Positions 48,790 through 64,000 of a stretch of 64,000 bases of DNA are shown here, in pieces. Numbering within the stretch: the first letter of the stretch is position 1; the number at the start of each line of letters is the position of its first letter. The notes beneath the pieces were generated by a model, which saw only the letters and a list, made by a program, of their open reading frames with translations, was not told where the DNA came from and did no database searches. The position numbers and the translations under genes are program-made. This DNA comes from a phage, in sequence record PZ445451.1; one strand, given 5' to 3'.

Positions 48790-49419
48790 TTATGTTTTAA
48801 TCTTGCCAAAATACAATACTTCAGCTTCCTGTCTTGCTGATATAGCATCTTCAATATCAATAAATGCTCCAAGACGGATATCTTTTCCTTGATAGGATAT
48901 ACGAGCAATCCATCTTTTTTCTTTCTCGCTCCACACAACACCTGTTTTACCAGAAGTGTTATTTTTCTGTTTTCGTGTATTGTATGACTGGACAGACCTT
49001 GTAGCCCAGCGACAATTTTCTTTACTGTAATCTTTTTCCGAGTCTATTCTGTCAAGAGATAAACCTTTAGGTCTATCTCCCATATCCTCAAAGAATGCAG
49101 AGAATGAATTTCTCCAAGCATCACAAACCTTAATACCACGACCACCGTAGTATTCAAAGTGAGTATTGTTTTTGTTATAGCATCTCCCTAACATAGCTTC
49201 CCACGATTTGTATGCTCCTGTTTGTGTTGTTTTCGGTCTACACTTGGAACAATAAGAACTTCTATTCTTCCTAAGTGTTTCCATAGTTACCGTGCAAATA
49301 TTACCACAATCACAAGAACAAGTAAAACGTCTTTTGCCATGTTTGTCCCTTTCAATCTCTTCTAAGACAGTATAACAACCGCATTTCTTACCTACAAGGT
49401 CTACTCTCTTGGCTCCCAT
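48790..49419 (-). CDS. HNH homing endonuclease with C-terminal AP2 DNA-binding domain
   Basis: LDRIDSEKDYSKENCRWATRSVQ (HNH_3-type) plus AP2-like GVVWSEKEKRWIARISYQGKDIRLGAF. Confidence 0.75.
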   Translation of the reverse strand: MGAKRVDLVGKKCGCYTVLEEIERDKHGKRRFTCSCDCGNICTVTMETLRKNRSSYCSKCRPKTTQTGAYKSWEAMLGRCYNKNNTHFEYYGGRGIKVCDAWRNSFSAFFEDMGDRPKGLSLDRIDSEKDYSKENCRWATRSVQSYNTRKQKNNTSGKTGVVWSEKEKRWIARISYQGKDIRLGAFIDIEDAISARQEAEVLYFGKIKT

Positions 49420-50516
49420 GTTCCCTCCACCATTTCCCGTAAACGGACACCTGTTGGTTTCGTAGGTATTCCACCATCGGAAAACTCTTCATACTCAATC
49501 TCAACAAATTTACCAATTAACATTTCGGCATTTTCTGCTTTACGATAGTTAATGGTTTCATCTGAATCCTTACGCATCAGGAATTCGACTACTTTACCAT
49601 TTTCCATCTCGCCTGTCAATACCCCGTCACCATTTTTATCACGCTTTGCACTTACCACTTTAACTTCAAGAGTCTGCCGTGGTTTACGTTTAATAACATC
49701 ATAAGAACGTTTATCAAACTCGTAAACACCTTGTGCGTTACGATACACCACACCTTCCGCTTTTTCACGTAGAGCTTTTGCATAGAATTCATCAAACTGC
49801 TCTTGGTTTTCAATGTATTCTGTATGTACTACACAAATAAGTTCATCTAAACCTTTATCTTCAACAACTTCTTTTAGAGCAGCTAAAACTTGAACCCTCT
49901 TCTCAAATGGTACAGATGGCACAGGAACATCATATACATAGTATTTAAGAAGCGGAGTGTTAGCATTATGCTTTTTCCACGCACTATTAATTTGTTGAAG
50001 GCTAAGGACACCCAAGCCAGCAAAAACTTCACCGTCAAGAGGATGACCAACTACTTCTTTAATGAAGGTTGGAATTTCTTTCCAGTGAGGTGGAAGTTTA
50101 TATACCTCCCCAGCTTTAGATAAACATTCACCTTGCATGTTAATCATTGAACGTAAACCATTCAATTTATATTGTGCATAACCTGGGAACAAAACACGAT
50201 CAGCATAATCTTTATAATCCTGACATTTCATGGGTGTGGAAGGAACATGGTTTTCAGCTTCCTCTTTTGTTTTATAATACCCATTCTTAAGTTGCTTTGT
50301 CCATTTGGCAAGAGCTTCTATTTCAGCTTGTTCTTCTGCTGTTGTTTCATTTGAGCGACCAACATTTTTAGGTTCTGCTGTATAAGATTTGCTAGTAATC
50401 TTTCCACCTAATTGACCATGAGCAACAGTTACAACACTACCTTCGGTATAGACTGACCACTGTTTAATTTTACCTGTAGAAGTTTTACCATATAATGTAG
50501 GATTAGTTTGTTTCAT
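49401..50516 (-). CDS. putative polynucleotide ligase (covalent nucleotidyltransferase, K-x-N-G-x-R motif)
   Basis: Track ORF 49401-50564 trimmed to Met17 (GGAGG RBS); YKLNGLR resembles ligase motif I KxDGxR. Confidence 0.45.
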   Translation of the reverse strand: MKQTNPTLYGKTSTGKIKQWSVYTEGSVVTVAHGQLGGKITSKSYTAEPKNVGRSNETTAEEQAEIEALAKWTKQLKNGYYKTKEEAENHVPSTPMKCQDYKDYADRVLFPGYAQYKLNGLRSMINMQGECLSKAGEVYKLPPHWKEIPTFIKEVVGHPLDGEVFAGLGVLSLQQINSAWKKHNANTPLLKYYVYDVPVPSVPFEKRVQVLAALKEVVEDKGLDELICVVHTEYIENQEQFDEFYAKALREKAEGVVYRNAQGVYEFDKRSYDVIKRKPRQTLEVKVVSAKRDKNGDGVLTGEMENGKVVEFLMRKDSDETINYRKAENAEMLIGKFVEIEYEEFSDGGIPTKPTGVRLREMVEGTWEPRE

Positions 50517-50706
50517 CTTTAACCTCCAGTTGCGAAAGAACCCATTTAGCCATTTCAATTTCACCGTGTAGTCTGCCTAGTTCATAGGCATCATCAATAT
50601 TACCACCAGTGTAATCATCCACCATAAAGTAAGGATCTTCGCTACTATTAGGTGCGTTTGCAATTCTCGTTAGTTCTTCAATAAATGTCATAGTTACCCT
50701 TACCAA
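50503..50706 (-). CDS. hypothetical protein (67 aa)
   Basis: Track ORF. Confidence 0.5.
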   Translation of the reverse strand: MVRVTMTFIEELTRIANAPNSSEDPYFMVDDYTGGNIDDAYELGRLHGEIEMAKWVLSQLEVKDETN

Positions 50707-51257: not shown

Positions 51258-51662
51258 TTATTGTAGCTTAAGTGAACTGCGAAGACGTTTCTCTTGCTGA
51301 TCACGAATATGTTGTGGAACCTCATGAATTGAGTCGTTACCGTGCCTATTTTCAACAACTAAAGAGATAACTTGATAACCAAACTCTTCAGCAAGAGTTA
51401 AATAAGGTTTAAGTTCTTTCTCTGTGGTTGAAGTGTTAGAGACAATAATCTTTTTAGTATTAGATGCCATAGCATCACGAACAATACTCTGACACCATGC
51501 GTGTGCTTTACCTACATTCTCTGGCTTCCAATCGTAAACACCACTTTCTGTGTAATGATATTGATCTGCCTCACAGATAGGCCAATAACCTTCAGAAATA
51601 ATTTCTGCTACTGTAGATTTACCTGCACCTGAAACACCACGTAAAATGATAAGTTGTTTCAT
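51258..51662 (-). CDS. polynucleotide 5'-kinase (T4 Pnk kinase-domain-like P-loop protein)
   Basis: MKQLIILRGVSGAGKSTVAEII resembles the T4 Pnkp N-terminus ([23 protein letters not shown]); IIVSNT matches the downstream motif. Confidence 0.65.
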   Translation of the reverse strand: MKQLIILRGVSGAGKSTVAEIISEGYWPICEADQYHYTESGVYDWKPENVGKAHAWCQSIVRDAMASNTKKIIVSNTSTTEKELKPYLTLAEEFGYQVISLVVENRHGNDSIHEVPQHIRDQQEKRLRSSLKLQ

Positions 51663-52595
51663 TTAGCCTCCAAAGAAGTTTTCTATTTCTTTACGTCGCT
51701 CTTGTGGATCTAGAGCAGCCCATTGAACCTTCGTAAAGTTATTTCGAAGCCATTCTAGCAAAGTATAATATTCTTCGTCAACAATTTGTTTAGCATTGTT
51801 TGGGTTGTCCCAAATCATATCCCACTTCTTATTGCCACCACGCATAAGGAACTTCTTAGCAAGATAGTATGGTGACTTAATCTTTAAGAGTAAGTTAAAC
51901 GGATAGTTTGTTTCACGAACAACAAAGCCTTCGTGTCTACAATGTTTAGACATTTCAACAACATCTGAAAATTTAATCATCGGATAAACTTCAGGACGTT
52001 TAAATTTTGTAATAGATGCAATCCCATCAAGAACACCTTCAGGTAACATGAAACTTGTCCCATCAAGATTTTGAATTCTTGCTCCAATTAAGTATGCACC
52101 TGGTTCTTCTTCGACAATATGTGGATCAGAAGGATCACAGATTTCAAAAAGAAAAGTTGCTTTTGCACTTTCTGTCCACTTAATGAAATACTCTATGTCG
52201 TCACACTCGGAAACAATACGGTTCTTTGCCATAATTGCAAAATCTGATTCTAGGCTCCCTGTTGTTGATACAACAAGTTGCCCTTTGTACACACCTACAG
52301 ATGCCATAAAACCGTTTACTTTACGGACAGCATCTACAAGTTCGTCTGCTGGAAGATCTGTACCATTCTCAAAACGATTAAAGATTTTAGTAAAAGGCCA
52401 AATAACAACATTGTCTTCTGAGTCAACAACCAACCCACGGCAATCTAGAAGTCGTTTGTCAACGTTCCACAAATTATCCCAGAATACATTGTTTTTGTAT
52501 TTAAGTACAGCAAGACCAGCATACTCTCCAGATTTAACTTCTTTTTTATGCACTAAACCTTTTGCAATCAGGTCATCACAATTGAACTTAGCCAC
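51663..52595 (-). CDS. RNA ligase (T4 Rnl1-like nucleotidyltransferase)
   Basis: LLDCRGLVV ... PFTKIFNRFEN parallels T4 Rnl1 LECRGIMF ... PMEKFFNLNEN; lysine motif KVNG; stop/start contiguous with the kinase gene. Confidence 0.6.
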   Translation of the reverse strand: MAKFNCDDLIAKGLVHKKEVKSGEYAGLAVLKYKNNVFWDNLWNVDKRLLDCRGLVVDSEDNVVIWPFTKIFNRFENGTDLPADELVDAVRKVNGFMASVGVYKGQLVVSTTGSLESDFAIMAKNRIVSECDDIEYFIKWTESAKATFLFEICDPSDPHIVEEEPGAYLIGARIQNLDGTSFMLPEGVLDGIASITKFKRPEVYPMIKFSDVVEMSKHCRHEGFVVRETNYPFNLLLKIKSPYYLAKKFLMRGGNKKWDMIWDNPNNAKQIVDEEYYTLLEWLRNNFTKVQWAALDPQERRKEIENFFGG

Positions 52596-52596
52596 C

Positions 52597-53148
52597 TTAA
52601 TCTCCTTTGATTATCTTATGATGGTCTACAACAACAATATCACGCTTATCCATAATAGAGATGATTTCGTCAAAATGCAAGATTTTTCCGTGTGCATCCC
52701 AACCAACATCCAACATCTTCCCATACAAATGATCAGGGAATGATCCGTGAGAGTGTCCGTGTAGCATGATTGATCCATGCCCTTGTTTATTCCAGGCAGC
52801 CATAGGGTAATGGCTTAAGACGAAAAACAGCTTCTGATATTTCACTTCGTCATAATAAACCACTTCTCCATACTCTGCAAGCACTTTTCTGTGTTTACTG
52901 TAATCATGGTTCCCAACACAGTAAGTAATATTCCCTTGGAGACGGGAAGCAATCTTACGGGTATCTTCTTCAGTCCCGAAACAGAAGTCCCCAAGATGGT
53001 ACATCTTTACTCCTGGTGTTGTGGCACATTTATTCCATGCTTCGATCAGTGCTTCTGTCATATGCTCCATATTTTCCCACGGGCGATATTCAGGAGCAAA
53101 TTCTCGGATACGTTTGTGCATAAAATGCAAATCACTTGTAATAAACAT
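52597..53148 (-). CDS. calcineurin-like metallophosphoesterase (candidate RNA 3'-phosphatase / 2',3'-cyclic phosphodiesterase)
   Basis: DLHF, GDFCFG and GNHDY metallophosphatase motifs; stop/start contiguous with the RNA ligase gene. Confidence 0.7.
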   Translation of the reverse strand: MFITSDLHFMHKRIREFAPEYRPWENMEHMTEALIEAWNKCATTPGVKMYHLGDFCFGTEEDTRKIASRLQGNITYCVGNHDYSKHRKVLAEYGEVVYYDEVKYQKLFFVLSHYPMAAWNKQGHGSIMLHGHSHGSFPDHLYGKMLDVGWDAHGKILHFDEIISIMDKRDIVVVDHHKIIKGD

Positions 53149-56040: not shown

Positions 56041-56934
56041 ATGAAAGTTAGTATTCTACATGGTGTTGATTGCTATGTTACTGATGTAGACGTTAAAGTG
56101 TTTACATTCTCTGGTGGAGAACAACATGTTCAATTAGATACGAATCTATCAGGTTTCAATCATGCTACAGACAGAATCTTACTCTCTTTAGAAGTAAGAT
56201 CTGCTAAAGACTTGATGACTTTGGTTATGACTAAGAATGCATTGGACAATATGCTATATCATAAACCATATTGTGTTGATTTGCTCATGTTGTATGTGCC
56301 ATATGCACGACAAGACAGAGTGTGTGAACCTGGGGAAGCATTCGGAGTTAAAGCATTTGCTTCTATAATTAATTCATTAAATTTCTCACGTGTTATAGTT
56401 GCTGATCCACATAGTGATGTTACTCCAGCAGTGTTTGACAGACTCTGTGTAATACCTCAAGAAGAGATTGCTTACGAAACTTTAAAGTGGAAGTTACGTA
56501 TGGAGAATTTTGCTCTTGTTAGTCCTGATGGTGGTGCTCTTAAGAAAATATTTAAATTATCTAAGAAAATGTCTTTAGATGTGTTCTGTGCAGAGAAGGT
56601 TAGAGATACTGCAACAGGTGCTATTGTTCGTACAGACATTTCTGTACAGGATTTCAATAAGCGTAACCTAATGATCGTAGATGATATCTGTGACGGCGGT
56701 AGAACTTTTATTGAATTGGCTAAAGTGCTACGTGCTCGTAACGCAGGTAAGATTGAGTTATATGTTACACACGGTATCTTTTCTAAAGGTCTTAAAGAGT
56801 TAAGTGAGCACTTTGACTGCATTCATTCTCTTAATGTGTGGGAAGATAACATCCAAGAAGATTCCGGTGTTCTTGTTAAGAATCAGTCGGATTTGCAACA
56901 ACAAATTGTATCTCCATACGTGTGGAATTTTTAA
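56041..56934 (+). CDS. ribose-phosphate pyrophosphokinase family protein (PRPP synthetase or Adps-type ADP-ribose pyrophosphate synthetase)
   Basis: YVPYARQDR, VSPDGG and MIVDDICDGGRT match the Prs ribose-5-P loop and PRPP-binding motif. Confidence 0.85.
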   Translation: MKVSILHGVDCYVTDVDVKVFTFSGGEQHVQLDTNLSGFNHATDRILLSLEVRSAKDLMTLVMTKNALDNMLYHKPYCVDLLMLYVPYARQDRVCEPGEAFGVKAFASIINSLNFSRVIVADPHSDVTPAVFDRLCVIPQEEIAYETLKWKLRMENFALVSPDGGALKKIFKLSKKMSLDVFCAEKVRDTATGAIVRTDISVQDFNKRNLMIVDDICDGGRTFIELAKVLRARNAGKIELYVTHGIFSKGLKELSEHFDCIHSLNVWEDNIQEDSGVLVKNQSDLQQQIVSPYVWNF

Positions 56935-57005
56935 ATAATACGTGTTGACAATAGGGAGTATGCTTAGTAAGATACTCCCACACTAACAAACAAGGAGACA
57001 TAACT

Positions 57006-58739
57006 ATGAATATTTTTGCACCTTTTGCTACTGATTGGTATAAACCTGGTCACAAGCAGATGTACAACCAAAATACAAAACTCATTTTCTCTAACTTAAC
57101 TCCTCGTAATGATAAAAACTTTGCAAACTACGCAGAACGTGAAGCACGTGGTGTAATTGTTTTAGGTATTCGTCGAGCAGTTACTGATGCTCTTGTAACT
57201 ATGTGGGATAGCTTCTTTAAAATGTCTCGTAGTGCAGCAGTAAATAAGTTTTATCGTATGTCTAAAAATGCATTAGGTGCTTCTGCTCCTTCTGCTGAAT
57301 GTTGGGGAGAATTGCACGATTTAGGTTATCTTCCGCTGGAAGTTCGATCTCTGCCAGAAGGTGTTTTGTGTCCTATTGGTGTTCCTGTGTTTACTGTGCA
57401 TAATACTTTAGAAAAATTCTTTTGGTTAACTAACTATGTGGAAACACTATTGTCAGATGAAACTTGGAAGACAATGACTAATGCTACAGCAGCTTTTCAG
57501 TATAAGCGTATTGCTATGGCATATGCGATGGCAACGTGTGATAATATTGATCACGTTAACTTCCAGTGTCATGATTTTAGCCTACGTGGTTTAAGTAATA
57601 TCGAAGATGGTTATAAGAGTGGTATCGCTCATTTGGCATCTTTCACAGGAACAGATAACATTCTGGCTATTGAGACTGTGCATGATTATTATGGTATTGA
57701 TTATGATCAGTTTGTTGCAGGTTCTATTCCGGCAACAGAACATTCAGTAGCAACGACTAACATTGGAGCTATTGTTGAAGATCTGAAGAAACATTTCCCA
57801 CATCTTAAAGATGATGTTGATGGGCTTCGTTATGTAGCAGAGAAAGAGTTTCTTCGCCGCTATATTGAAGAAATTGTTCCAGAAGGTTTTTGTTCATATG
57901 TAGCAGATTCTTATGATTACTGGGCTGTCTTGACTCGCATTCTGGTAGAATTGAAAGAATCCATTATGTCACGAAATGGTCGTCTTGTTATTCGTCCAGA
58001 TTCAGGAGATCCGGTTAAAGTTGTTGCAGGATACAATGTTGAATCTTTTGCTAACTATGAAGACCTTTTAAATAATGGTATTGCTACAGCCACTGAAGTA
58101 GTTCATTTGGTTGATGTTAATAAATATTACAATGTTCTTCAGGATTGCAGTGTTGCTGATTGTATTGATGAAACTTATGAGATTCCTTATTGTGAAGCAG
58201 TAGGTTCTATTCAAATCCTTTGGGAAGTGTTTGGTGGTACTATCAACCGAAAAGGCTACAAGGTTCTTGATCAGCACATCGGTATGATTTATGGTGATTC
58301 TATTACTGTTGAACGAGAACACGAGATCTTACGCCGACTGAAGAAGAAAGGTTTTGCAGCTTCCAATATTGTATTTGGTGTTGGTAGTTATACTTATCAG
58401 TTCAATACACGAGATACTTTTGGTTTTGCTGTTAAAGCAACAGGTAGTATCATCGGTGAACACGAAATTTTGGTAAGTAAGGAGCCTAAAACTGATCCTG
58501 GTAAACGATCTGCAAAAGGTTTTATTAAGGTTGTTAAGGATACAAATGGTAAACTTTCTCTTGTGGATAATCTTTCTTTTAAAGATATCCAAGATGAAGA
58601 CAATGAGTTAAAAGTTATCTTCAGGGATGGTACGGTTATTACACCACAAGTAGAAGGACGTGATGAAACATTTACTGATATCCGTAACCGTGTTGATGTA
58701 GAGGTTCTTCGTACTATGGGAACCATCCAGGTTGACTAA
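57006..58739 (+). CDS. nicotinamide phosphoribosyltransferase family protein (NadV/NAMPT or Namat-type)
   Basis: TDWYKPGH, PEGVLCPIGVPVFTVHNT, FWLTNYVETLL, HDFSLRGLSN and FTGTDNILA align with conserved NAMPT blocks. Confidence 0.85.
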   Translation: MNIFAPFATDWYKPGHKQMYNQNTKLIFSNLTPRNDKNFANYAEREARGVIVLGIRRAVTDALVTMWDSFFKMSRSAAVNKFYRMSKNALGASAPSAECWGELHDLGYLPLEVRSLPEGVLCPIGVPVFTVHNTLEKFFWLTNYVETLLSDETWKTMTNATAAFQYKRIAMAYAMATCDNIDHVNFQCHDFSLRGLSNIEDGYKSGIAHLASFTGTDNILAIETVHDYYGIDYDQFVAGSIPATEHSVATTNIGAIVEDLKKHFPHLKDDVDGLRYVAEKEFLRRYIEEIVPEGFCSYVADSYDYWAVLTRILVELKESIMSRNGRLVIRPDSGDPVKVVAGYNVESFANYEDLLNNGIATATEVVHLVDVNKYYNVLQDCSVADCIDETYEIPYCEAVGSIQILWEVFGGTINRKGYKVLDQHIGMIYGDSITVEREHEILRRLKKKGFAASNIVFGVGSYTYQFNTRDTFGFAVKATGSIIGEHEILVSKEPKTDPGKRSAKGFIKVVKDTNGKLSLVDNLSFKDIQDEDNELKVIFRDGTVITPQVEGRDETFTDIRNRVDVEVLRTMGTIQVD

Positions 58740-59592: not shown

Positions 59593-59678
59593 GCAAGTGT
59601 GGTGGAATTGGTGATACACATTGTGCTTAAAACGCAACGCTTAAATGATTGAGGGTTCGAATCCCTCCACTTGCACCA
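59593..59678 (+). tRNA. tRNA-Leu (anticodon TAA), type II
   Basis: Acceptor GCAAGTG/CACTTGC, anticodon loop CTTAAAA, 13-nt variable arm, T-arm GAGGG-TTCGAAT-CCCTC, A73, CCA encoded. Confidence 0.75.
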
Positions 59679-59680
59679 AC

Positions 59681-59786
59681 GCCTAGTAGGGTATTTGGTA
59701 ATTCCGAGGCCATCAAAGCCTGAAAAATATGTTAGACCGCTTTGTCTAACTAAATACGAAATATGGTTCGATTCCATAACTAGGCT
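59681..59786 (+). ncRNA. aberrant tRNA-like element (~105 nt; perfect acceptor plus canonical T-arm but no standard D/anticodon arms)
   Basis: GCCTAGT (59681-87) pairs perfectly with ACTAGGC (59779-85); T-arm TATGG-TTCGATT-CCATA; internal hairpin GTTAGAC-CGCTTT-GTCTAAC. Confidence 0.3.
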
Positions 59787-59860
59787 TCAATTTAAATAGT
59801 AATTTTAGTAAAAAATATCTTGACATTTACTTAGTTTTTTTGTTATAGTCGTTATGAAAA

Positions 59861-59942
59861 CGGGGTGTATCTCACCTGACTTCTAATCAGGCGTTAACCG
59901 AGTAATTGGAGTATGCAGGTTCGAATCCTGTCACCCCGGCCA
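59861..59942 (+). tRNA. tRNA-Arg(TCT)-like RNA lacking a D-arm
   Basis: 7 bp acceptor, canonical anticodon arm CCTGA-CTTCTAA-TCAGG, canonical T-arm GCAGG-TTCGAAT-CCTGT, CCA encoded; only 7 nt between acceptor and anticodon stem and a 23-nt insert before the T-arm; TTGACA promoter at 59820. Confidence 0.45.
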
Positions 59943-60005
59943 AAAAGTTTTAAAAACTGCTTGACAAGCAAGATAGTTTTATGTTAGATTTAAAGTATGA
60001 TAACT

Positions 60006-60095
60006 GGAAGGTAGGGCGCAGCGGTGCGCAACCAGGTTTGAACCCTGGCCCATTGTAGCGATACGGTGATGGTTCGACTCCATTATCTTCCTCCA
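60006..60095 (+). tRNA. tRNA-Ser (anticodon TGA), type II
   Basis: Acceptor GGAAGGT, 3 bp D-stem, anticodon arm CCAGG-TTTGAAC-CCTGG, 19-nt variable arm, T-arm GATGG-TTCGACT-CCATT, CCA encoded. Confidence 0.7.
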
Positions 60096-60101
60096 AATTC
60101 A

Positions 60102-60266
60102 ATGAGTGATTTTATGAATTATAAAACTATTGGACAGGTTGTTACCGGAGTTAAGATTGTAAATAATAAAGTTGTTTATGAGTATTCTAATCTTCAACAA
60201 TCTGAAGATGGTAAGAATATTCGTATGGTAAAAGCAGAACAAAAAGATTCCGGTTGTTTTGAATAA
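60102..60266 (+). CDS. small protein embedded in the tRNA cluster (54 aa)
   Basis: Track ORF 60066-60266 trimmed to the first ATG beyond tRNA-Ser; weak RBS. Confidence 0.35.
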   Translation: MSDFMNYKTIGQVVTGVKIVNNKVVYEYSNLQQSEDGKNIRMVKAEQKDSGCFE

Positions 60267-60274
60267 TTAAGAAC

Positions 60275-60360
60275 GGTAGATTGGTGAAATGGTAGCCACA
60301 ACAGTTTGCTAAACTGTCGTCGGAAACGGCGTGTAGGTTCAAGTCCTACATCTACCGCCA
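60275..60360 (+). tRNA. tRNA-Ser (anticodon GCT), type II
   Basis: Acceptor GGTAGAT/ATCTACC, anticodon arm ACAGT-TTGCTAA-ACTGT, 15-nt variable arm, T-arm GTAGG-TTCAAGT-CCTAC, G73, CCA. Confidence 0.75.
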
Positions 60361-60495
60361 AGTTATCTTTAATGTAGCTTGTAATCTTACTTTAGCAGAG
60401 TAAATCTTCGGCAAGTGGCGGTAACCACTTTACCGATACCCCAATACTTCATAGCTAAGTGCCGCAAACACTGGCTATTTTAAAGATAATTTTAT

Positions 60496-60570
60496 ACATC
60501 GTTAGCCAAGCGGTAAGGCACTTGACTTTTAATCAAGGGAGCGAAGGTTCGAATCCTTCACGATGTACCA
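60496..60570 (+). tRNA. tRNA-Lys (anticodon TTT)
   Basis: Acceptor ACATCGT/ACGATGT, anticodon arm CTTGA-CTTTTAA-TCAAG, T-arm GAAGG-TTCGAAT-CCTTC, CCA. Confidence 0.7.
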
Positions 60571-60575
60571 AACAC

Positions 60576-60662
60576 GTAGGTATCGCATAGCGGCAATTGC
60601 TGGAGACTGTAAATCTCCTGCCCTTCGGGGCTTCGTTGGTTCGAGTCCAACTACCTGCACCA
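60576..60662 (+). tRNA. tRNA-Tyr (anticodon GTA), type II
   Basis: Acceptor GTAGGTA/TACCTGC, anticodon arm GGAGA-CTGTAAA-TCTCC, 16-nt variable arm, T-arm GTTGG-TTCGAGT-CCAAC, A73, CCA. Confidence 0.75.
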
Positions 60663-60669
60663 AATTAAA

Positions 60670-60754
60670 GATGGATTGGCCTAGTGGTTGGGCGACGGAC
60701 TGTTAATCCGTGAACGAAAGTTCTAGCAAGGTTCAAATCCTTGATCCATCGCCA
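60670..60754 (+). tRNA. type II (Ser-like scaffold, G73) tRNA carrying an Asn anticodon GTT
   Basis: Acceptor GATGGAT/ATCCATC, 3 bp D-stem, anticodon arm ACGGA-CTGTTAA-TCCGT, 15-nt variable arm GAACGAAAGTTCTAG, T-arm CAAGG-TTCAAAT-CCTTG, G73, CCA. Confidence 0.6.
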
Positions 60755-60833
60755 AATAGTGCTTGTAGAGTTAATAGAAACCTCTAGAATTTTCTAGAAT
60801 TGTAGGTATCAAATCCTACCAAGCAAATATTTT

Positions 60834-60908
60834 GCTCCTATCGTATAACGGCTATTACGGTTGCCTTGTAAGCAACTTATCAGGGTTCGAGTCCTTGTGG
60901 GAGCACCA
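60834..60908 (+). tRNA. tRNA-Thr (anticodon TGT)
   Basis: Acceptor GCTCCTA/TGGGAGC, anticodon arm GTTGC-CTTGTAA-GCAAC, T-arm CAGGG-TTCGAGT-CCTTG, CCA. Confidence 0.7.
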
Positions 60909-60925
60909 ATTTTAACTCTAAAGGA

Positions 60926-61255
60926 GTGTATGTGACAGAAAAAGAGTTAGAGAAATATTTTAATATCAATGTTTTCGATGGTTTTGATGATATCGAAGAT
61001 GTTGAAAGATATTATGAAGTAGAGTTAGATAAGGATAACATTGTAATTCTTTCTGCCACTTATGATTGTGCATATTATGAAGGCGAATCTCACGTTTATT
61101 TTTATGATATGAAAACATCTTTGTTTTATGAAGTACACGCATATCATTGTTCTTGTTATGGTTTAGAAGGTCAGTGGGAACCTGAAGAAATAGGTGATTT
61201 GGATTTTACTATTGCATATCTAAACAGACGTGGTGCATCTACTATTTTAAAATAA
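60926..61255 (+). CDS. hypothetical acidic protein (109 aa) inside the tRNA cluster
   Basis: Track ORF (GTG start) with AAGGAG RBS. Confidence 0.6.
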   Translation: MYVTEKELEKYFNINVFDGFDDIEDVERYYEVELDKDNIVILSATYDCAYYEGESHVYFYDMKTSLFYEVHAYHCSCYGLEGQWEPEEIGDLDFTIAYLNRRGASTILK

Positions 61256-61310
61256 ATATCAAAAGCCTCTTGACAAAGGGGCTAATAATATGTTAGAGTA
61301 ATATTGTTAA

Positions 61311-61385
61311 GCGGGTATAGTGTTAATGGTAGCATATGAGGTTTCCACCCTCCAGGTGCAGGTTCAAGTCCTGTTACTCGCTCCA
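61311..61385 (+). tRNA. tRNA-Gly (anticodon TCC)
   Basis: Acceptor GCGGGTA/TACTCGC, anticodon loop TTTCCAC, T-arm GCAGG-TTCAAGT-CCTGT, CCA; TTGACA promoter at 61270. Confidence 0.65.
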
Positions 61386-61484
61386 AGATTATTTAAATGG
61401 AATCGCTAGAGAAAATTTCTCTTTTCGCTCATGGTTTTCTCCTTCAAACTCTAGCGGTTCTTTTTAAATGATTTTTTAGTTTAT

Positions 61485-61559
61485 TGGAGATTAGCCTAGT
61501 GGGAAGGCAACGGCCTTTGAAGTCGTGATGACTAGGTTCGATTCCTAGATCTCCAGCCA
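61485..61559 (+). tRNA. tRNA-Gln (anticodon TTG)
   Basis: Acceptor TGGAGAT/ATCTCCA, anticodon arm ACGGC-CTTTGAA-GTCGT, T-arm CTAGG-TTCGATT-CCTAG, G73, CCA. Confidence 0.7.
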
Positions 61560-61566
61560 ATATTTA

Positions 61567-61642
61567 CAGTGCGTAGCGCAGTTGGTAGCGTGGGAGCTTT
61601 GGATGCTTCGGGTCGCAGGTTCGAGTCCTGCCGCACTGACCA
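61567..61642 (+). tRNA. tRNA-Pro (anticodon TGG)
   Basis: C1-G72 acceptor (typical of bacterial tRNA-Pro), anticodon arm GGAGC-TTTGGAT-GCTTC, T-arm GCAGG-TTCGAGT-CCTGC, A73, CCA. Confidence 0.75.
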
Positions 61643-61647
61643 AATTT

Positions 61648-61722
61648 GCAGAGATAGCTGAGACGGATTAGTGCTACCCTGAAAAGGTAGAAAGGATGGA
61701 TCGTTACCATCTCTCTGCACCA
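61648..61722 (+). tRNA. tRNA-Phe (anticodon GAA), atypical T-loop and weak D-stem
   Basis: Perfect 7 bp acceptor GCAGAGA/TCTCTGC, anticodon arm CTACC-CTGAAAA-GGTAG, T-stem GATGG/CCATC with loop ATCGTTA, CCA. Confidence 0.55.
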
Positions 61723-61799
61723 AATAACACCATCCAAGGAGTAGACTTGGTTAACTGTCAATATCACATTGAGGCTTCTTACAGTGGTGTACTTATTAT

Positions 61800-61884
61800 G
61801 GCTAAGTGGTGGAATGGTATACACGATACGCTTAGAACGTATTGCCCCAAGGGATTGTGAGTTCGAGTCTCACCTTAGCTACCA
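61800..61884 (+). tRNA. tRNA-Leu (anticodon TAG), type II
   Basis: Anticodon arm ATACG-CTTAGAA-CGTAT, 14-nt variable arm with CCC/GGG stem, T-arm GTGAG-TTCGAGT-CTCAC, A73, CCA. Confidence 0.7.
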
Positions 61885-61899
61885 AATTATTACAGATTG

Positions 61900-61978
61900 T
61901 GCGGGATAGAGGAGTCTGGTCGTCCTCGCCAGTTTCATATGCTGGAGATCATCGGTTCAAATCCGATTCCCGCCTCCA
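61900..61978 (+). tRNA. tRNA-Met or Ile2 (anticodon CAT) with 1:72 mismatch and 11-nt D-loop
   Basis: Acceptor TGCGGGA/TCCCGCC (U1xC72), D-stem GAGG/CCTC, anticodon arm CCAGT-TTCATAT-GCTGG, T-arm ATCGG-TTCAAAT-CCGAT, CCA. Confidence 0.6.
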
Positions 61979-62045
61979 ATAAATACCTCCCTTCTGGTGT
62001 AATGATTAAGTTACATTGACACTTCAAGGAACTCATAGCCGGGTA

Positions 62046-62119
62046 GATTTAAAAGAGTATGGTACTCAATATGGCTCCAAACCATAGATCAAGGGGTTCG
62101 ATTCCTCACCTTGCTGCCA
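62046..62119 (+). pseudogene. tRNA-Trp(CCA)-like element with unpaired acceptor stem (probable pseudo-tRNA)
   Basis: Good anticodon arm TATGG-CTCCAAA-CCATA and T-arm-like GGGG-TTCGATT-CCTC ending in CCA, but 5'/3' acceptor strands do not pair. Confidence 0.3.
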
Positions 62120-62124
62120 ATTAT

Positions 62125-62200
62125 TGTGGTATCGTACAGATGGTTAGTACACTCGACCGATAATCGAGAAACAACGGTTCGACTCCGTTTACCACGACCA
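62125..62200 (+). tRNA. tRNA-Ile (anticodon GAT)
   Basis: Acceptor TGTGGTA/TACCACG, D-stem GTAC/GTAC, anticodon arm CTCGA-CCGATAA-TCGAG, T-arm AACGG-TTCGACT-CCGTT, A73, CCA. Confidence 0.7.
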
Positions 62201-63325: not shown

Positions 63326-63757
63326 ATGATGATACTGACTATGTTAATAAACCTACTGAAGAATAAATGGGTTAGGTATTTTGTTCTTATTATAGCACTG
63401 TTTGGTGGTTTGTATGTTGGTTTAAACAAATTACACGATGACGTGTATGCACAAGGCTACAACGCAGGTATTGCTAAACAAGAACAAATATTACAACAAA
63501 ACCAAATTAAAGCAAAACAGCAATTCGATATCTTACAAGCAAAAGCAGATTCAGAAAGATCTAAATTGAATGAAAAAATTCATTCATTAACGAAACAAAG
63601 AAATGATCTTCTTACACAACTGGATAAGAAGAGTAATAACATAACACAAGAGAGAATAGATTATGCGAAAACATCTTCTGGCGCTATGTCTTGTTTTAGC
63701 CCTAATGATGACGGGTTGCGCATCATCAACAACAGCTTCCCAGCCTCTATTGATTGA
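63326..63757 (+). CDS. i-spanin-like protein (Rz-like: N-terminal TM helix plus coiled-coil periplasmic domain)
   Basis: Hydrophobic WVRYFVLIIALFGGLYVGL followed by Gln/Lys-rich coiled coil; start codon uncertain. Confidence 0.45.
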   Translation: MMILTMLINLLKNKWVRYFVLIIALFGGLYVGLNKLHDDVYAQGYNAGIAKQEQILQQNQIKAKQQFDILQAKADSERSKLNEKIHSLTKQRNDLLTQLDKKSNNITQERIDYAKTSSGAMSCFSPNDDGLRIINNSFPASID

Positions 63758-63992
63758 GCAGTGTAAAGCTGTAGCAACACAACAAATAAAAGCCCCTGAT
63801 TCTGTCAGTATGGAAAAACCATCTACCCCTGTTTTATATACTCCCAATCAAATAAAGAAAGGGGTTACAAGATCAGAGGTAGTGGATAATCAAACTTTAA
63901 ACAACGCTTTGTGGGAAAAAGATAGGATAAAACTTATCAGTTTACAAAACTATATTAAAACATTACAAAGTGAAGGAATAATTTCTAATTAG
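63663..63992 (+). CDS. o-spanin-like outer-membrane lipoprotein (Rz1-like), start embedded in the i-spanin gene in another frame
   Basis: MRKHLLALCLVLALMMTGC signal peptide with lipobox L-M-M-T-G-C. Confidence 0.5.
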   Translation: MRKHLLALCLVLALMMTGCASSTTASQPLLIEQCKAVATQQIKAPDSVSMEKPSTPVLYTPNQIKKGVTRSEVVDNQTLNNALWEKDRIKLISLQNYIKTLQSEGIISN

Positions 63993-64000
63993 GAGGAGAT

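What the first reader, a model, noticed from the sequence alone, without database searches (positions are those of the whole stretch)
49401..50516. Second ligase-like nucleotidyltransferase with an unusual K-L-N-G-L-R motif I
A 371-aa protein contains YKLNGLR where covalent nucleotidyltransferases have KxDGxR, with Asn in place of the usual Asp. It sits 0.7 kb from the RNA-repair cassette. It could be the phage DNA ligase, a second RNA ligase (as T4 has Rnl1 and Rnl2), or an inactive paralog.
Basis: inference. Interest (0 to 1): 0.4.

Follow-up and report, generated by a model that had tools for sequence, protein, structure and literature searches.

The report
Phage DNA ligase with Asn motif
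This gene is the phage's single, already annotated ATP-dependent DNA ligase; its K-L-N-G-L-R active-site motif is a recurring variant of its ligase family and also occurs in the active African swine fever virus ligase, so it is ordinary.

Summary
The ORF is real but lies on the minus strand (window 49401-50516, 371 aa, GGAGG ribosome-binding site). It contains Y-K117-L-N119-G-L-R122. The window is 100% identical to Escherichia phage PaulScherrer (Bas60, MZ501100.1), where the gene (bas60_0238) is already annotated "ATP-dependent DNA ligase".

Asn instead of Asp occurs in 107 of 121 close relatives and in 19 of 92 scorable family representatives. It has switched with Asp repeatedly. No second DNA ligase or paralogue exists in the genome, so this is the phage's DNA nick-sealing enzyme, not a second RNA ligase or a dead copy.

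One side result is mildly new. The first 95 residues form a WGR-like domain, present in at least 4,092 protein clusters, that appears homologous to the ASFV ligase N-terminal domain described as "unique".

The parts
49401..50516 (-). Complete CDS of the ATP-dependent DNA ligase (371 aa plus stop); equals bas60_0238 / QXV83973.1 of Escherichia phage PaulScherrer.
   Evidence: ORF list and translation; 100% megablast identity and GenBank annotation; PF01068 E 4e-11; phrog_114 E 9.5e-76.
50523..50527 (-). Shine-Dalgarno GGAGG, 6 nt upstream of the ATG at 50516.
   Evidence: Read directly from the sequence.
50232..50516 (-). N-terminal domain, residues 1-95: a four-stranded sheet (8-11, 17-25, 28-35, 40-46) packed on a long helix (60-77). 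It is WGR-like and equivalent to the ASFV ligase NTD.
50340..50369 (-). Loop K50-N-V-G-R-S-N-E-T-T59 before the long helix, aligned with ASFV ligase K85-N-L-G-K-K-N-A-T-T94. That ASFV loop contacts DNA.
   Evidence: phmmer and profile alignments. N51 is invariant; N56 is invariant in A2 and nearly invariant in A1; K50, G53 and T58 are nearly invariant. The ASFV paper reports that replacing loop residues 85-92 halves DNA binding.
49677..50231 (-). Adenylation (nucleotidyltransferase) domain, residues 96-280.
   Evidence: PF01068 matches residues 96-278; fold matches.
50151..50168 (-). Motif I, K117-L-N119-G-L-R122. K117 is the predicted AMP-accepting lysine and N119 replaces the canonical Asp.
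   Evidence: Sequence. K, G and R invariant; position 119 is N 44 / D 9 in A1 and N 107 / D 14 in 121 sequences. Aligned with ASFV K151-R-N153-G-V-R.
50028..50036 (-). Motif III core, D161-G-E163.
   Evidence: D161 and E163 are invariant.
49995..50000 (-). L173-Q174 at the start of helix 173-181, aligned with ASFV Leu211-Gln212. Leu211 takes the place of HsLIG1 Phe635 at the nick.
   Evidence: phmmer alignment. Both residues are invariant in 121 sequences. The Leu is kept in 7 of 8 distant phage relatives. ASFV paper.
49929..49940 (-). Motif IIIa, Y193-V-Y195-D196.
   Evidence: Y195 is invariant and D196 is present in 50 of 53.
49752..49757 (-). Motif IV core, E254-G255.
   Evidence: Invariant.
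49683..49691 (-). Motif V, K276-R-K278.
   Evidence: K276 and K278 are invariant.
49404..49676 (-). C-terminal OB-fold domain, residues 281-371.
   Evidence: AF2 beta-barrel strands 281-360. PF14743 DNA_ligase_OB_2 is weak here (E 0.0024, below the cut-off) but matched at E<=0.01 in 79 of 104 family representatives. Fold matches.
49437..49466 (-). Motif VI region, P351-T352-K353-P-T-G-V-R-L-R360. T352/K353 occupy the positions of ASFV Leu402/Gln403 and HsLIG1 Arg871/Phe872.
   Evidence: Alignments. K353 and R360 are invariant. T352 co-varies with N119.

Best explanation
The gene encodes the single ATP-dependent DNA ligase of a phi92-like E. coli myovirus (PaulScherrer/Bas60, Stephanstirmvirinae). 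It has three domains: a WGR-like N-terminal DNA-binding domain (residues 1-95), a minimal adenylation domain (96-280) and an OB domain (281-371). The mechanism is inferred from the family and has not been assayed. K117 attacks ATP to form ligase-AMP. The three domains then encircle a nicked duplex, as in the closed ASFV ligase-DNA complexes that the model resembles. AMP is passed to the 5'-phosphate and the 3'-OH attacks to seal the nick. The enzyme would seal Okazaki-fragment and repair or recombination nicks for a phage that carries its own polymerase, primase-helicase and 5'-exonuclease. Asn119 replaces the motif I Asp. In human LIG1 and LIG4 that Asp makes a salt bridge to the motif VI Arg. 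This family has no such Arg (T352-K353 here), so the Asp has lost that partner and Asn is tolerated, as it is in the active ASFV enzyme.
Against: No member of this phage ligase family has been assayed, as far as the searched literature shows. Adenylylation, DNA specificity and cofactor choice are therefore inferred. In Chlorella virus ligase, D29A at this position is strongly defective (cited in PMC6035275), so the position is not irrelevant to catalysis. The Pfam OB_2 match for this particular protein is below the cut-off. E. coli LigA could in principle also serve the phage, so whether the gene is essential is unknown.
Confidence: 0.9

Rival explanations
1. It is a second RNA ligase (Rnl2-like or another nick-sealing RNA ligase) that works with the neighbouring kinase, phosphatase and Rnl1 RNA-repair genes.
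For: It lies 741 bp from the RNA-repair genes on the same strand. 28 of 104 family representatives also give weak PF09414 RNA_ligase matches, as related nucleotidyltransferases often do. Some small DNA ligases, such as the Chlorella virus enzyme, can join DNA on RNA splints (my own knowledge).
Confidence: 0.04
2. It is a catalytically dead ligase paralogue, inactivated by the Asp-to-Asn change, that keeps only a DNA-binding or structural role.
For: The motif I Asp is important in Chlorella virus ligase and human LIG4, where the alanine mutants are nearly inactive.
Against: It is not a paralogue, because it is the only ligase-type gene in the genome. The lysine nucleophile and all other motif residues are invariant over hundreds of sequences. 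Asn and Asp interchange repeatedly between close clusters. ASFV ligase, with the same Asn, ligates DNA, and reverting it (N153D, tested only in combination mutants) did not increase activity. Between Bas60 and Bas62 the gene shows 25 synonymous and 12 non-synonymous codon differences.
Confidence: 0.02
3. It is an active DNA ligase whose Asn119/Leu173 nick-site residues make it unusually mismatch-tolerant (error-prone), like the ASFV enzyme. This is a special case of the main explanation.
For: It shares two of the four 'unique' ASFV nick-site residues (Asn153 and Leu211, matching N119 and L173) plus the NTD.
Against: The other two residues differ: T352/K353 instead of Leu402/Gln403, and Gln403 was the most important for ASFV efficiency. 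The ASFV authors could not attribute low fidelity to these residues. A replicative phage ligase has no obvious need for low fidelity.
Confidence: 0.15

Closest known systems
African swine fever virus DNA ligase (AsfvLIG, NP419L; PDB 6IMJ/6IMK/6IML/6IMN)
   Different: Overall identity is only about 22-25%. The ASFV NTD is longer (120 aa against 95 aa, seven strands and three helices). Motif VI has T352-K353 instead of Leu402-Gln403. The host and biology differ: a eukaryotic virus repair ligase against a phage ligase. The NTD alone did not retrieve ASFV ligase in Foldseek.
Minimal ATP-dependent DNA ligases (Chlorella virus PBCV-1 ligase 2Q2T; bacterial Lig E 4D05/6GDR/8U6X)
   Different: Those enzymes have no N-terminal domain; they use a latch or nothing. 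They keep the canonical KxDGxR. The NF006592 score of 65.6 bits is far below its 200-bit cut-off.
WGR domain (Pfam PF05406; PARP-1/2/3, MolR-like proteins, uncharacterised bacterial WGR-NT-OB_2 ligases)
   Different: The Pfam WGR model does not score this protein and matches only 2 of 104 relatives weakly. The Trp-Gly-Arg triad reads H-G-Q here. There is an extra 10-15 residue K-N-x-G-x-x-N-E-T-T loop, which is absent from 2ra8.
T4, T7 and T3 phage DNA ligases
   Different: T4 and the Rhizobium phage P10VF ligase use an alpha-helical DNA-binding domain. T7 and T3 have none. All have the canonical Asp in motif I (my own knowledge for T7: K-Y-D-G-V-R).

Membership tests
ATP-dependent DNA ligase (covalent nucleotidyltransferase superfamily, PF01068 + OB) | Adenylation domain recognised by the family model above its curated threshold | tested here: met
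   PF01068 scores 43.4 bits against a 26.2-bit cut-off, E 4e-11. phrog_114 'ATP-dependent DNA ligase' matches at E 9.5e-76.
ATP-dependent DNA ligase (covalent nucleotidyltransferase superfamily, PF01068 + OB) | Motif I with the lysine nucleophile (KxDGxR) | tested here: met
   K117, G120 and R122 are invariant. The third position is Asn here (N 107 / D 14 in the close clade), as in the active ASFV ligase. The Asp itself is absent, so the literal consensus is not matched at that one position.
ATP-dependent DNA ligase (covalent nucleotidyltransferase superfamily, PF01068 + OB) | Motifs III, IIIa, IV and V present and conserved | tested here: met
   D161/E163, Y195/D196, E254/G255 and K276/K278 are invariant or nearly so.
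ATP-dependent DNA ligase (covalent nucleotidyltransferase superfamily, PF01068 + OB) | C-terminal OB-fold domain carrying motif VI | tested here: met
   The AF2 model has an OB barrel at residues 281-360 that superposes on DNA ligase OB domains. K353 and R360 are invariant. PF14743 is below threshold for this protein (E 0.0024) but matches at E<=0.01 in 79 of 104 relatives.
ATP-dependent DNA ligase (covalent nucleotidyltransferase superfamily, PF01068 + OB) | ATP-dependent self-adenylylation and sealing of 3'-OH/5'-PO4 nicks in duplex DNA | not testable with these tools
   This is a biochemical property. No assay of any member of this phage clade was found in the searched literature.
ASFV-type ligase architecture (alpha/beta NTD + AD + OB) | N-terminal mixed alpha/beta DNA-binding domain equivalent to AsfvLIG residues 1-120 | tested here: met
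ASFV-type ligase architecture (alpha/beta NTD + AD + OB) | The four 'unique' nick-site residues Asn153, Leu211, Leu402 and Gln403 | tested here: not met
   Two of the four are shared (N119, L173). The motif VI pair is T352/K353, not Leu/Gln.
ASFV-type ligase architecture (alpha/beta NTD + AD + OB) | Low ligation fidelity (mismatch tolerance) | not testable with these tools
   This requires mismatch-ligation kinetics.
WGR domain (PF05406) | Match to the Pfam WGR model at or above the gathering score | tested here: not met
   There is no WGR hit for residues 1-96 even at E<=10. Only 2 of 104 relatives match, with best E 0.0046.
WGR domain (PF05406) | WGR fold (antiparallel sheet packed on a C-terminal helix) and profile-level similarity to a bona fide WGR domain | tested here: met
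RNA ligases Rnl1 / Rnl2 / Rnl3 / Rnl5 | Best sequence and fold similarity to RNA ligase adenylyltransferase domains, with their characteristic C- or N-terminal modules | tested here: not met
Bacterial Lig E (NCBIfam NF006592) | Score above the equivalog cut-off; periplasmic minimal ligase without extra domains | tested here: not met
   The score is 65.6 bits against a 200-bit cut-off. The protein also has an extra 95-aa N-terminal domain.

The most novel reading that the evidence does not exclude
The N-terminal domain of the ASFV DNA ligase has been described as a 'completely novel' fold, and ASFV ligase as a singleton in ligase sequence space. On this reading it is a member of a very large, overlooked family of phage ligase N-terminal domains (at least 4,092 clusters at 50% identity) that are divergent WGR domains, the same break-sensing module used by PARP enzymes. 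Two of the four 'unique' ASFV nick-site residues (Asn in motif I and the Leu replacing Phe635) would then be family traits inherited from or shared with phage ligases. The ASFV enzyme would descend from a phage-type WGR-ligase lineage.
Probability: 0.6. Interest if true: 0.4.

Novelty: already known. Interest (0 to 1): 0.15.

Why it matters
The flagged feature itself matters little. It is the expected DNA ligase of a published phage genome, and its odd-looking motif has a precedent in a solved, active enzyme.

The by-product has modest value. It gives ligase specialists many phage enzymes, likely easy to express, that share the ASFV ligase architecture. These could be used to test what the Asn/Leu nick-site residues and the N-terminal domain do. 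It also challenges the idea that the ASFV NTD is a virus-unique drug target without relatives. Finally, it links ligase nick recognition to the WGR module of PARPs.

Tried and rejected
- **Plus-strand reading.** Reading the finding's coordinates on the plus strand gives only stops. The gene is on the minus strand.
- **Pfam on the isolated NTD.** Even at E<=10 there was no WGR or other meaningful hit.
- **Literature search on motif I.** The search for 'KxDGxR' plus asparagine found nothing specific.
- **Rhizobium phage P10VF ligase (9FZX).** I considered it as a characterised relative, but it is T4-like with a helical DNA-binding domain, so it is not this family.
- **Lig E membership.** Rejected on the NCBIfam cut-off.
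- **A second DNA ligase or paralogue in the genome.** None was found, either by annotation or by a profile scan of all ORFs of 60 aa or more.
- **Longer GTG start at 50564.** Rejected because of the GGAGG site before the ATG and the lengths of the homologues.
- **N119/T352 co-variation.** I did not treat it as proof of contact, because the sequences are phylogenetically related and I could not read model coordinates.

Full report
**1. The observation**

Window 49401-50516 holds a 371-aa ORF, but on the minus strand. The plus-strand frame is full of stops. The ATG at 50516 has a GGAGG ribosome-binding site 6 nt upstream (50523-50527). Homologues are 365-373 aa long, so the 371-aa reading is right and the alternative GTG at 50564 is not needed.

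The sequence Y-K117-L-N119-G-L-R122 is present at window 50151-50168. The gene starts 741 bp from a polynucleotide kinase ORF (51258-51662). That ORF adjoins an Rnl1-type RNA ligase (51663-52595, PF09511) and a metallophosphoesterase (52597-53148). Three small ORFs lie in between.

**2. Source and existing annotation**

The window is 100% identical to Escherichia phage PaulScherrer (Bas60, MZ501100.1; Stephanstirmvirinae, Justusliebigvirus). Window position equals record position minus 87,100, and the last 675 bases wrap to record position 1.

The gene is bas60_0238 / QXV83973.1 and is already annotated "ATP-dependent DNA ligase". The whole record lists one DNA ligase and one RNA ligase. I built an HMM from the ligase family and searched it against every ORF of 60 aa or more in the first 150,000 of the record's 150,425 bases. 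It found only this gene (E 1e-181; the next hit was at E 0.15). "Second ligase-like" is therefore true only in the sense that the other ligase is the RNA ligase. This gene is the phage's only DNA ligase.

**3. What it is**

- **Sequence families.** Pfam PF01068 (ATP-dependent DNA ligase domain) matches residues 96-278 above threshold (E 4e-11). PHROG 114, "ATP-dependent DNA ligase", matches at 9.5e-76.
- **Conserved motifs.** In an alignment of 53 homologues down to 45% identity, every catalytic signature is invariant or nearly so:

| Motif | Residues |
|---|---|
| I | K117, G120, R122 |
| III | D161, E163 |
| IIIa | Y195, D196 |
| IV | E254, G255 |
| V | K276, K278 |
| VI (OB domain) | K353, R360 |

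- **Predicted fold.** The AlphaFold2 model is confident (pLDDT 94.1, pTM 0.82).
  - Foldseek against the PDB puts the closed ASFV ligase-DNA complexes first (E 1e-25, TM 0.78-0.79), then Lig E, T4 and Chlorella virus ligases.
- **Distribution.** tblastn finds full-length relatives in 958 phage records, and those with a product name under the match are labelled DNA ligase. They include phi92-like, rV5-like, Felix-O1-like, Pakpunavirus, Nankokuvirus, Vibrio, Erwinia and Listeria phages.

The gene sits in a minus-strand block with a recombination protein, a 5'-exonuclease and a DnaQ-like exonuclease. The phage also has its own polymerase and primase-helicase. The best-supported function is the phage's nick-sealing DNA ligase for replication, repair and recombination.

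**4. The Asn in motif I**

The closest solved relative, ASFV ligase, has K151-R-N153-G-V-R aligned exactly with K117-L-N119-G-L-R. That enzyme is active and has been crystallised on nicked DNA. Its authors list Asn153 among four "unique" nick-site residues. They note that in human LIG1 the corresponding Asp570 forms a salt bridge with Arg871 of motif VI. The same Asp-Arg pair exists in LIG4.

In the phage protein, T352-K353 occupy the positions of HsLIG1 Arg871/Phe872 (Leu402/Gln403 in ASFV). The Arg partner is therefore absent.

| Sequence set | Asn | Asp | Not scorable |
|---|---|---|---|
| Query plus the 120 closest clusters (45% identity or more) | 107 | 14 | 0 |
| 104 representatives of the wider NTD-bearing family | 19 | 73 | 12 (several interrupted by inteins) |

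- **Repeated switching.** Many Asn clusters have Asp clusters as nearest neighbours, so the switch has happened repeatedly.
- **Distant relatives.** Eight distant phage relatives (SE131, RP7, LPML1, VPMCC14, 4MG, phiN3, VCM, PAK_P4) all have KxDGxR, and most have Q-F at the two motif VI positions corresponding to T352-K353.
- **Co-variation.** In the close clade Asn goes with Thr352 (104 of 107), while Asp goes with Leu or Gln (12 of 14). This fits the known spatial contact of these two positions but is confounded by shared ancestry.

My inference is that Asn is a tolerated, lineage-typical variant and not a sign of inactivation. This step is inferred from homology and not shown.

**5. The N-terminal domain**

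Residues 1-95 have no Pfam match. They fold confidently as a four-stranded sheet packed on a long helix.

*Link to the ASFV NTD:*
- A profile of the NTD alone has ASFV ligase residues 74-111 as its best PDB hit (E 0.0033).
- K50, N51, G53, N56, T58, Q63 and A64, all invariant or nearly invariant in the family, are identical to ASFV K85, N86, G88, N91, T93, Q98 and A99. That ASFV segment is the beta7-alpha3 DNA-contact loop plus helix alpha3.

*Link to WGR domains:*
- 2ra8 is the only Foldseek hit below E 0.5 for the NTD alone (E 0.027, TM 0.58).
- 2ra8 is the second-best profile hit (E 0.004). The matched 2ra8 segment is a Pfam WGR domain (E 3e-19), and hhalign gives 94.6% probability.

*Family size and prior literature:*
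- The NTD profile finds 4,092 cluster representatives (E<=1e-3) among 1.84 billion proteins. Nearly all of the 150 best hits that were listed are either ligases of about 350-430 aa or shorter fragments.
- The ASFV paper calls its NTD "completely novel".
- A 2020 review treats ASFV ligase as a single node in sequence space, and mentions uncharacterised bacterial WGR-ligase fusions.
- I found no paper in the held library that connects these.

*Caveats:* the NTD alone did not retrieve ASFV ligase in Foldseek. The two profile E-values are marginal. I could not inspect coordinates.

**6. Rivals**

- **Second RNA ligase.** The fold scores argue against it, as do the DNA-ligase OB domain and the lack of any other DNA ligase. 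In other phages the homologues also sit beside unrelated neighbours.
- **Dead paralogue.** The invariant catalytic residues, the single-copy status and the active ASFV precedent argue against it.
- **Error-prone ligase like ASFV's.** This remains possible but unsupported. Only two of the four ASFV nick-site residues are shared, and the ASFV authors could not tie those residues to fidelity.

**7. Verdict**

The finding is a correctly spotted but ordinary gene, already annotated, and the "unusual" motif has a characterised precedent. Its novelty class is "already known" and its interest is low (0.15). The only new element is the likely three-way relationship between this large phage ligase family, the ASFV ligase NTD and WGR domains. 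I rate that at about 0.6 probability and moderate interest to ligase specialists.

Noticed in passing
window 48790-49419 (-), overlapping the ligase 3' end (49401-49419): bas60_0237 is annotated 'hypothetical protein' but is an HNH endonuclease (phrog_374, E 3e-72). Its own GGAGGG ribosome-binding site lies inside the ligase gene. It is absent from the sister phage JohannJBalmer (Bas62) and from most relatives. 30 of the 37 codon differences between the Bas60 and Bas62 ligases fall in the last 46 codons, which include motif VI. This looks like a free-standing homing endonuclease with a co-conversion or immunity tract in the ligase 3' end.
   Followed up: partly
proteins P0143, P0156, P0166, P0181, P0213, P0224, P0192 (homologues, not in the window): About 7-8 of 104 family representatives are 590-785 aa long because an intein with a LAGLIDADG endonuclease is inserted in the adenylation domain near motif I (Pfam Intein_splicing and LAGLIDADG_2). 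PaulScherrer itself has inteins in its DNA polymerase and UvrD helicase.
   Followed up: no
window 51258-53148 (-): This is an RNA-repair gene trio: a P-loop polynucleotide kinase (134 aa), an Rnl1-type RNA ligase (310 aa, PF09511) and a metallophosphoesterase (183 aa). The RNA ligase also has Asn in its lysine motif (K-V-N-G-F). PHROG labels its family 'RNA ligase and tail fiber protein attachment catalyst'.
   Followed up: partly
window 56041-58739 (+) (record 143141-145839): The phage encodes a PRPP synthetase and a nicotinamide phosphoribosyltransferase, i.e. NAD+ salvage. Elsewhere it encodes a sirtuin and a macrodomain protein. In Vequintavirinae (4MG, Seu621, KP12) a Sir2 gene lies directly next to the ligase homologue.
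   Followed up: no
loci L006, L009, L011, L012 (RP7, 4MG, VCM, PAK_P4 ligases): These relatives carry a 30-60 residue, probably helical, insertion right after the L173-equivalent helix, between motifs III and IIIa. It is absent from the Bas60 clade. In tblastn the 4MG-type genes therefore appear as two pieces.
   Followed up: no
window 63326-64000: The last 675 bases of the window equal positions 1-675 of the linear GenBank record (the spanin genes). The window therefore runs across the record's end.
   Followed up: yes
window 59593-62200 approx. (record 146693-149300): The record annotates a cluster of 14 tRNA genes downstream of the region studied. I did not examine it.
   Followed up: no
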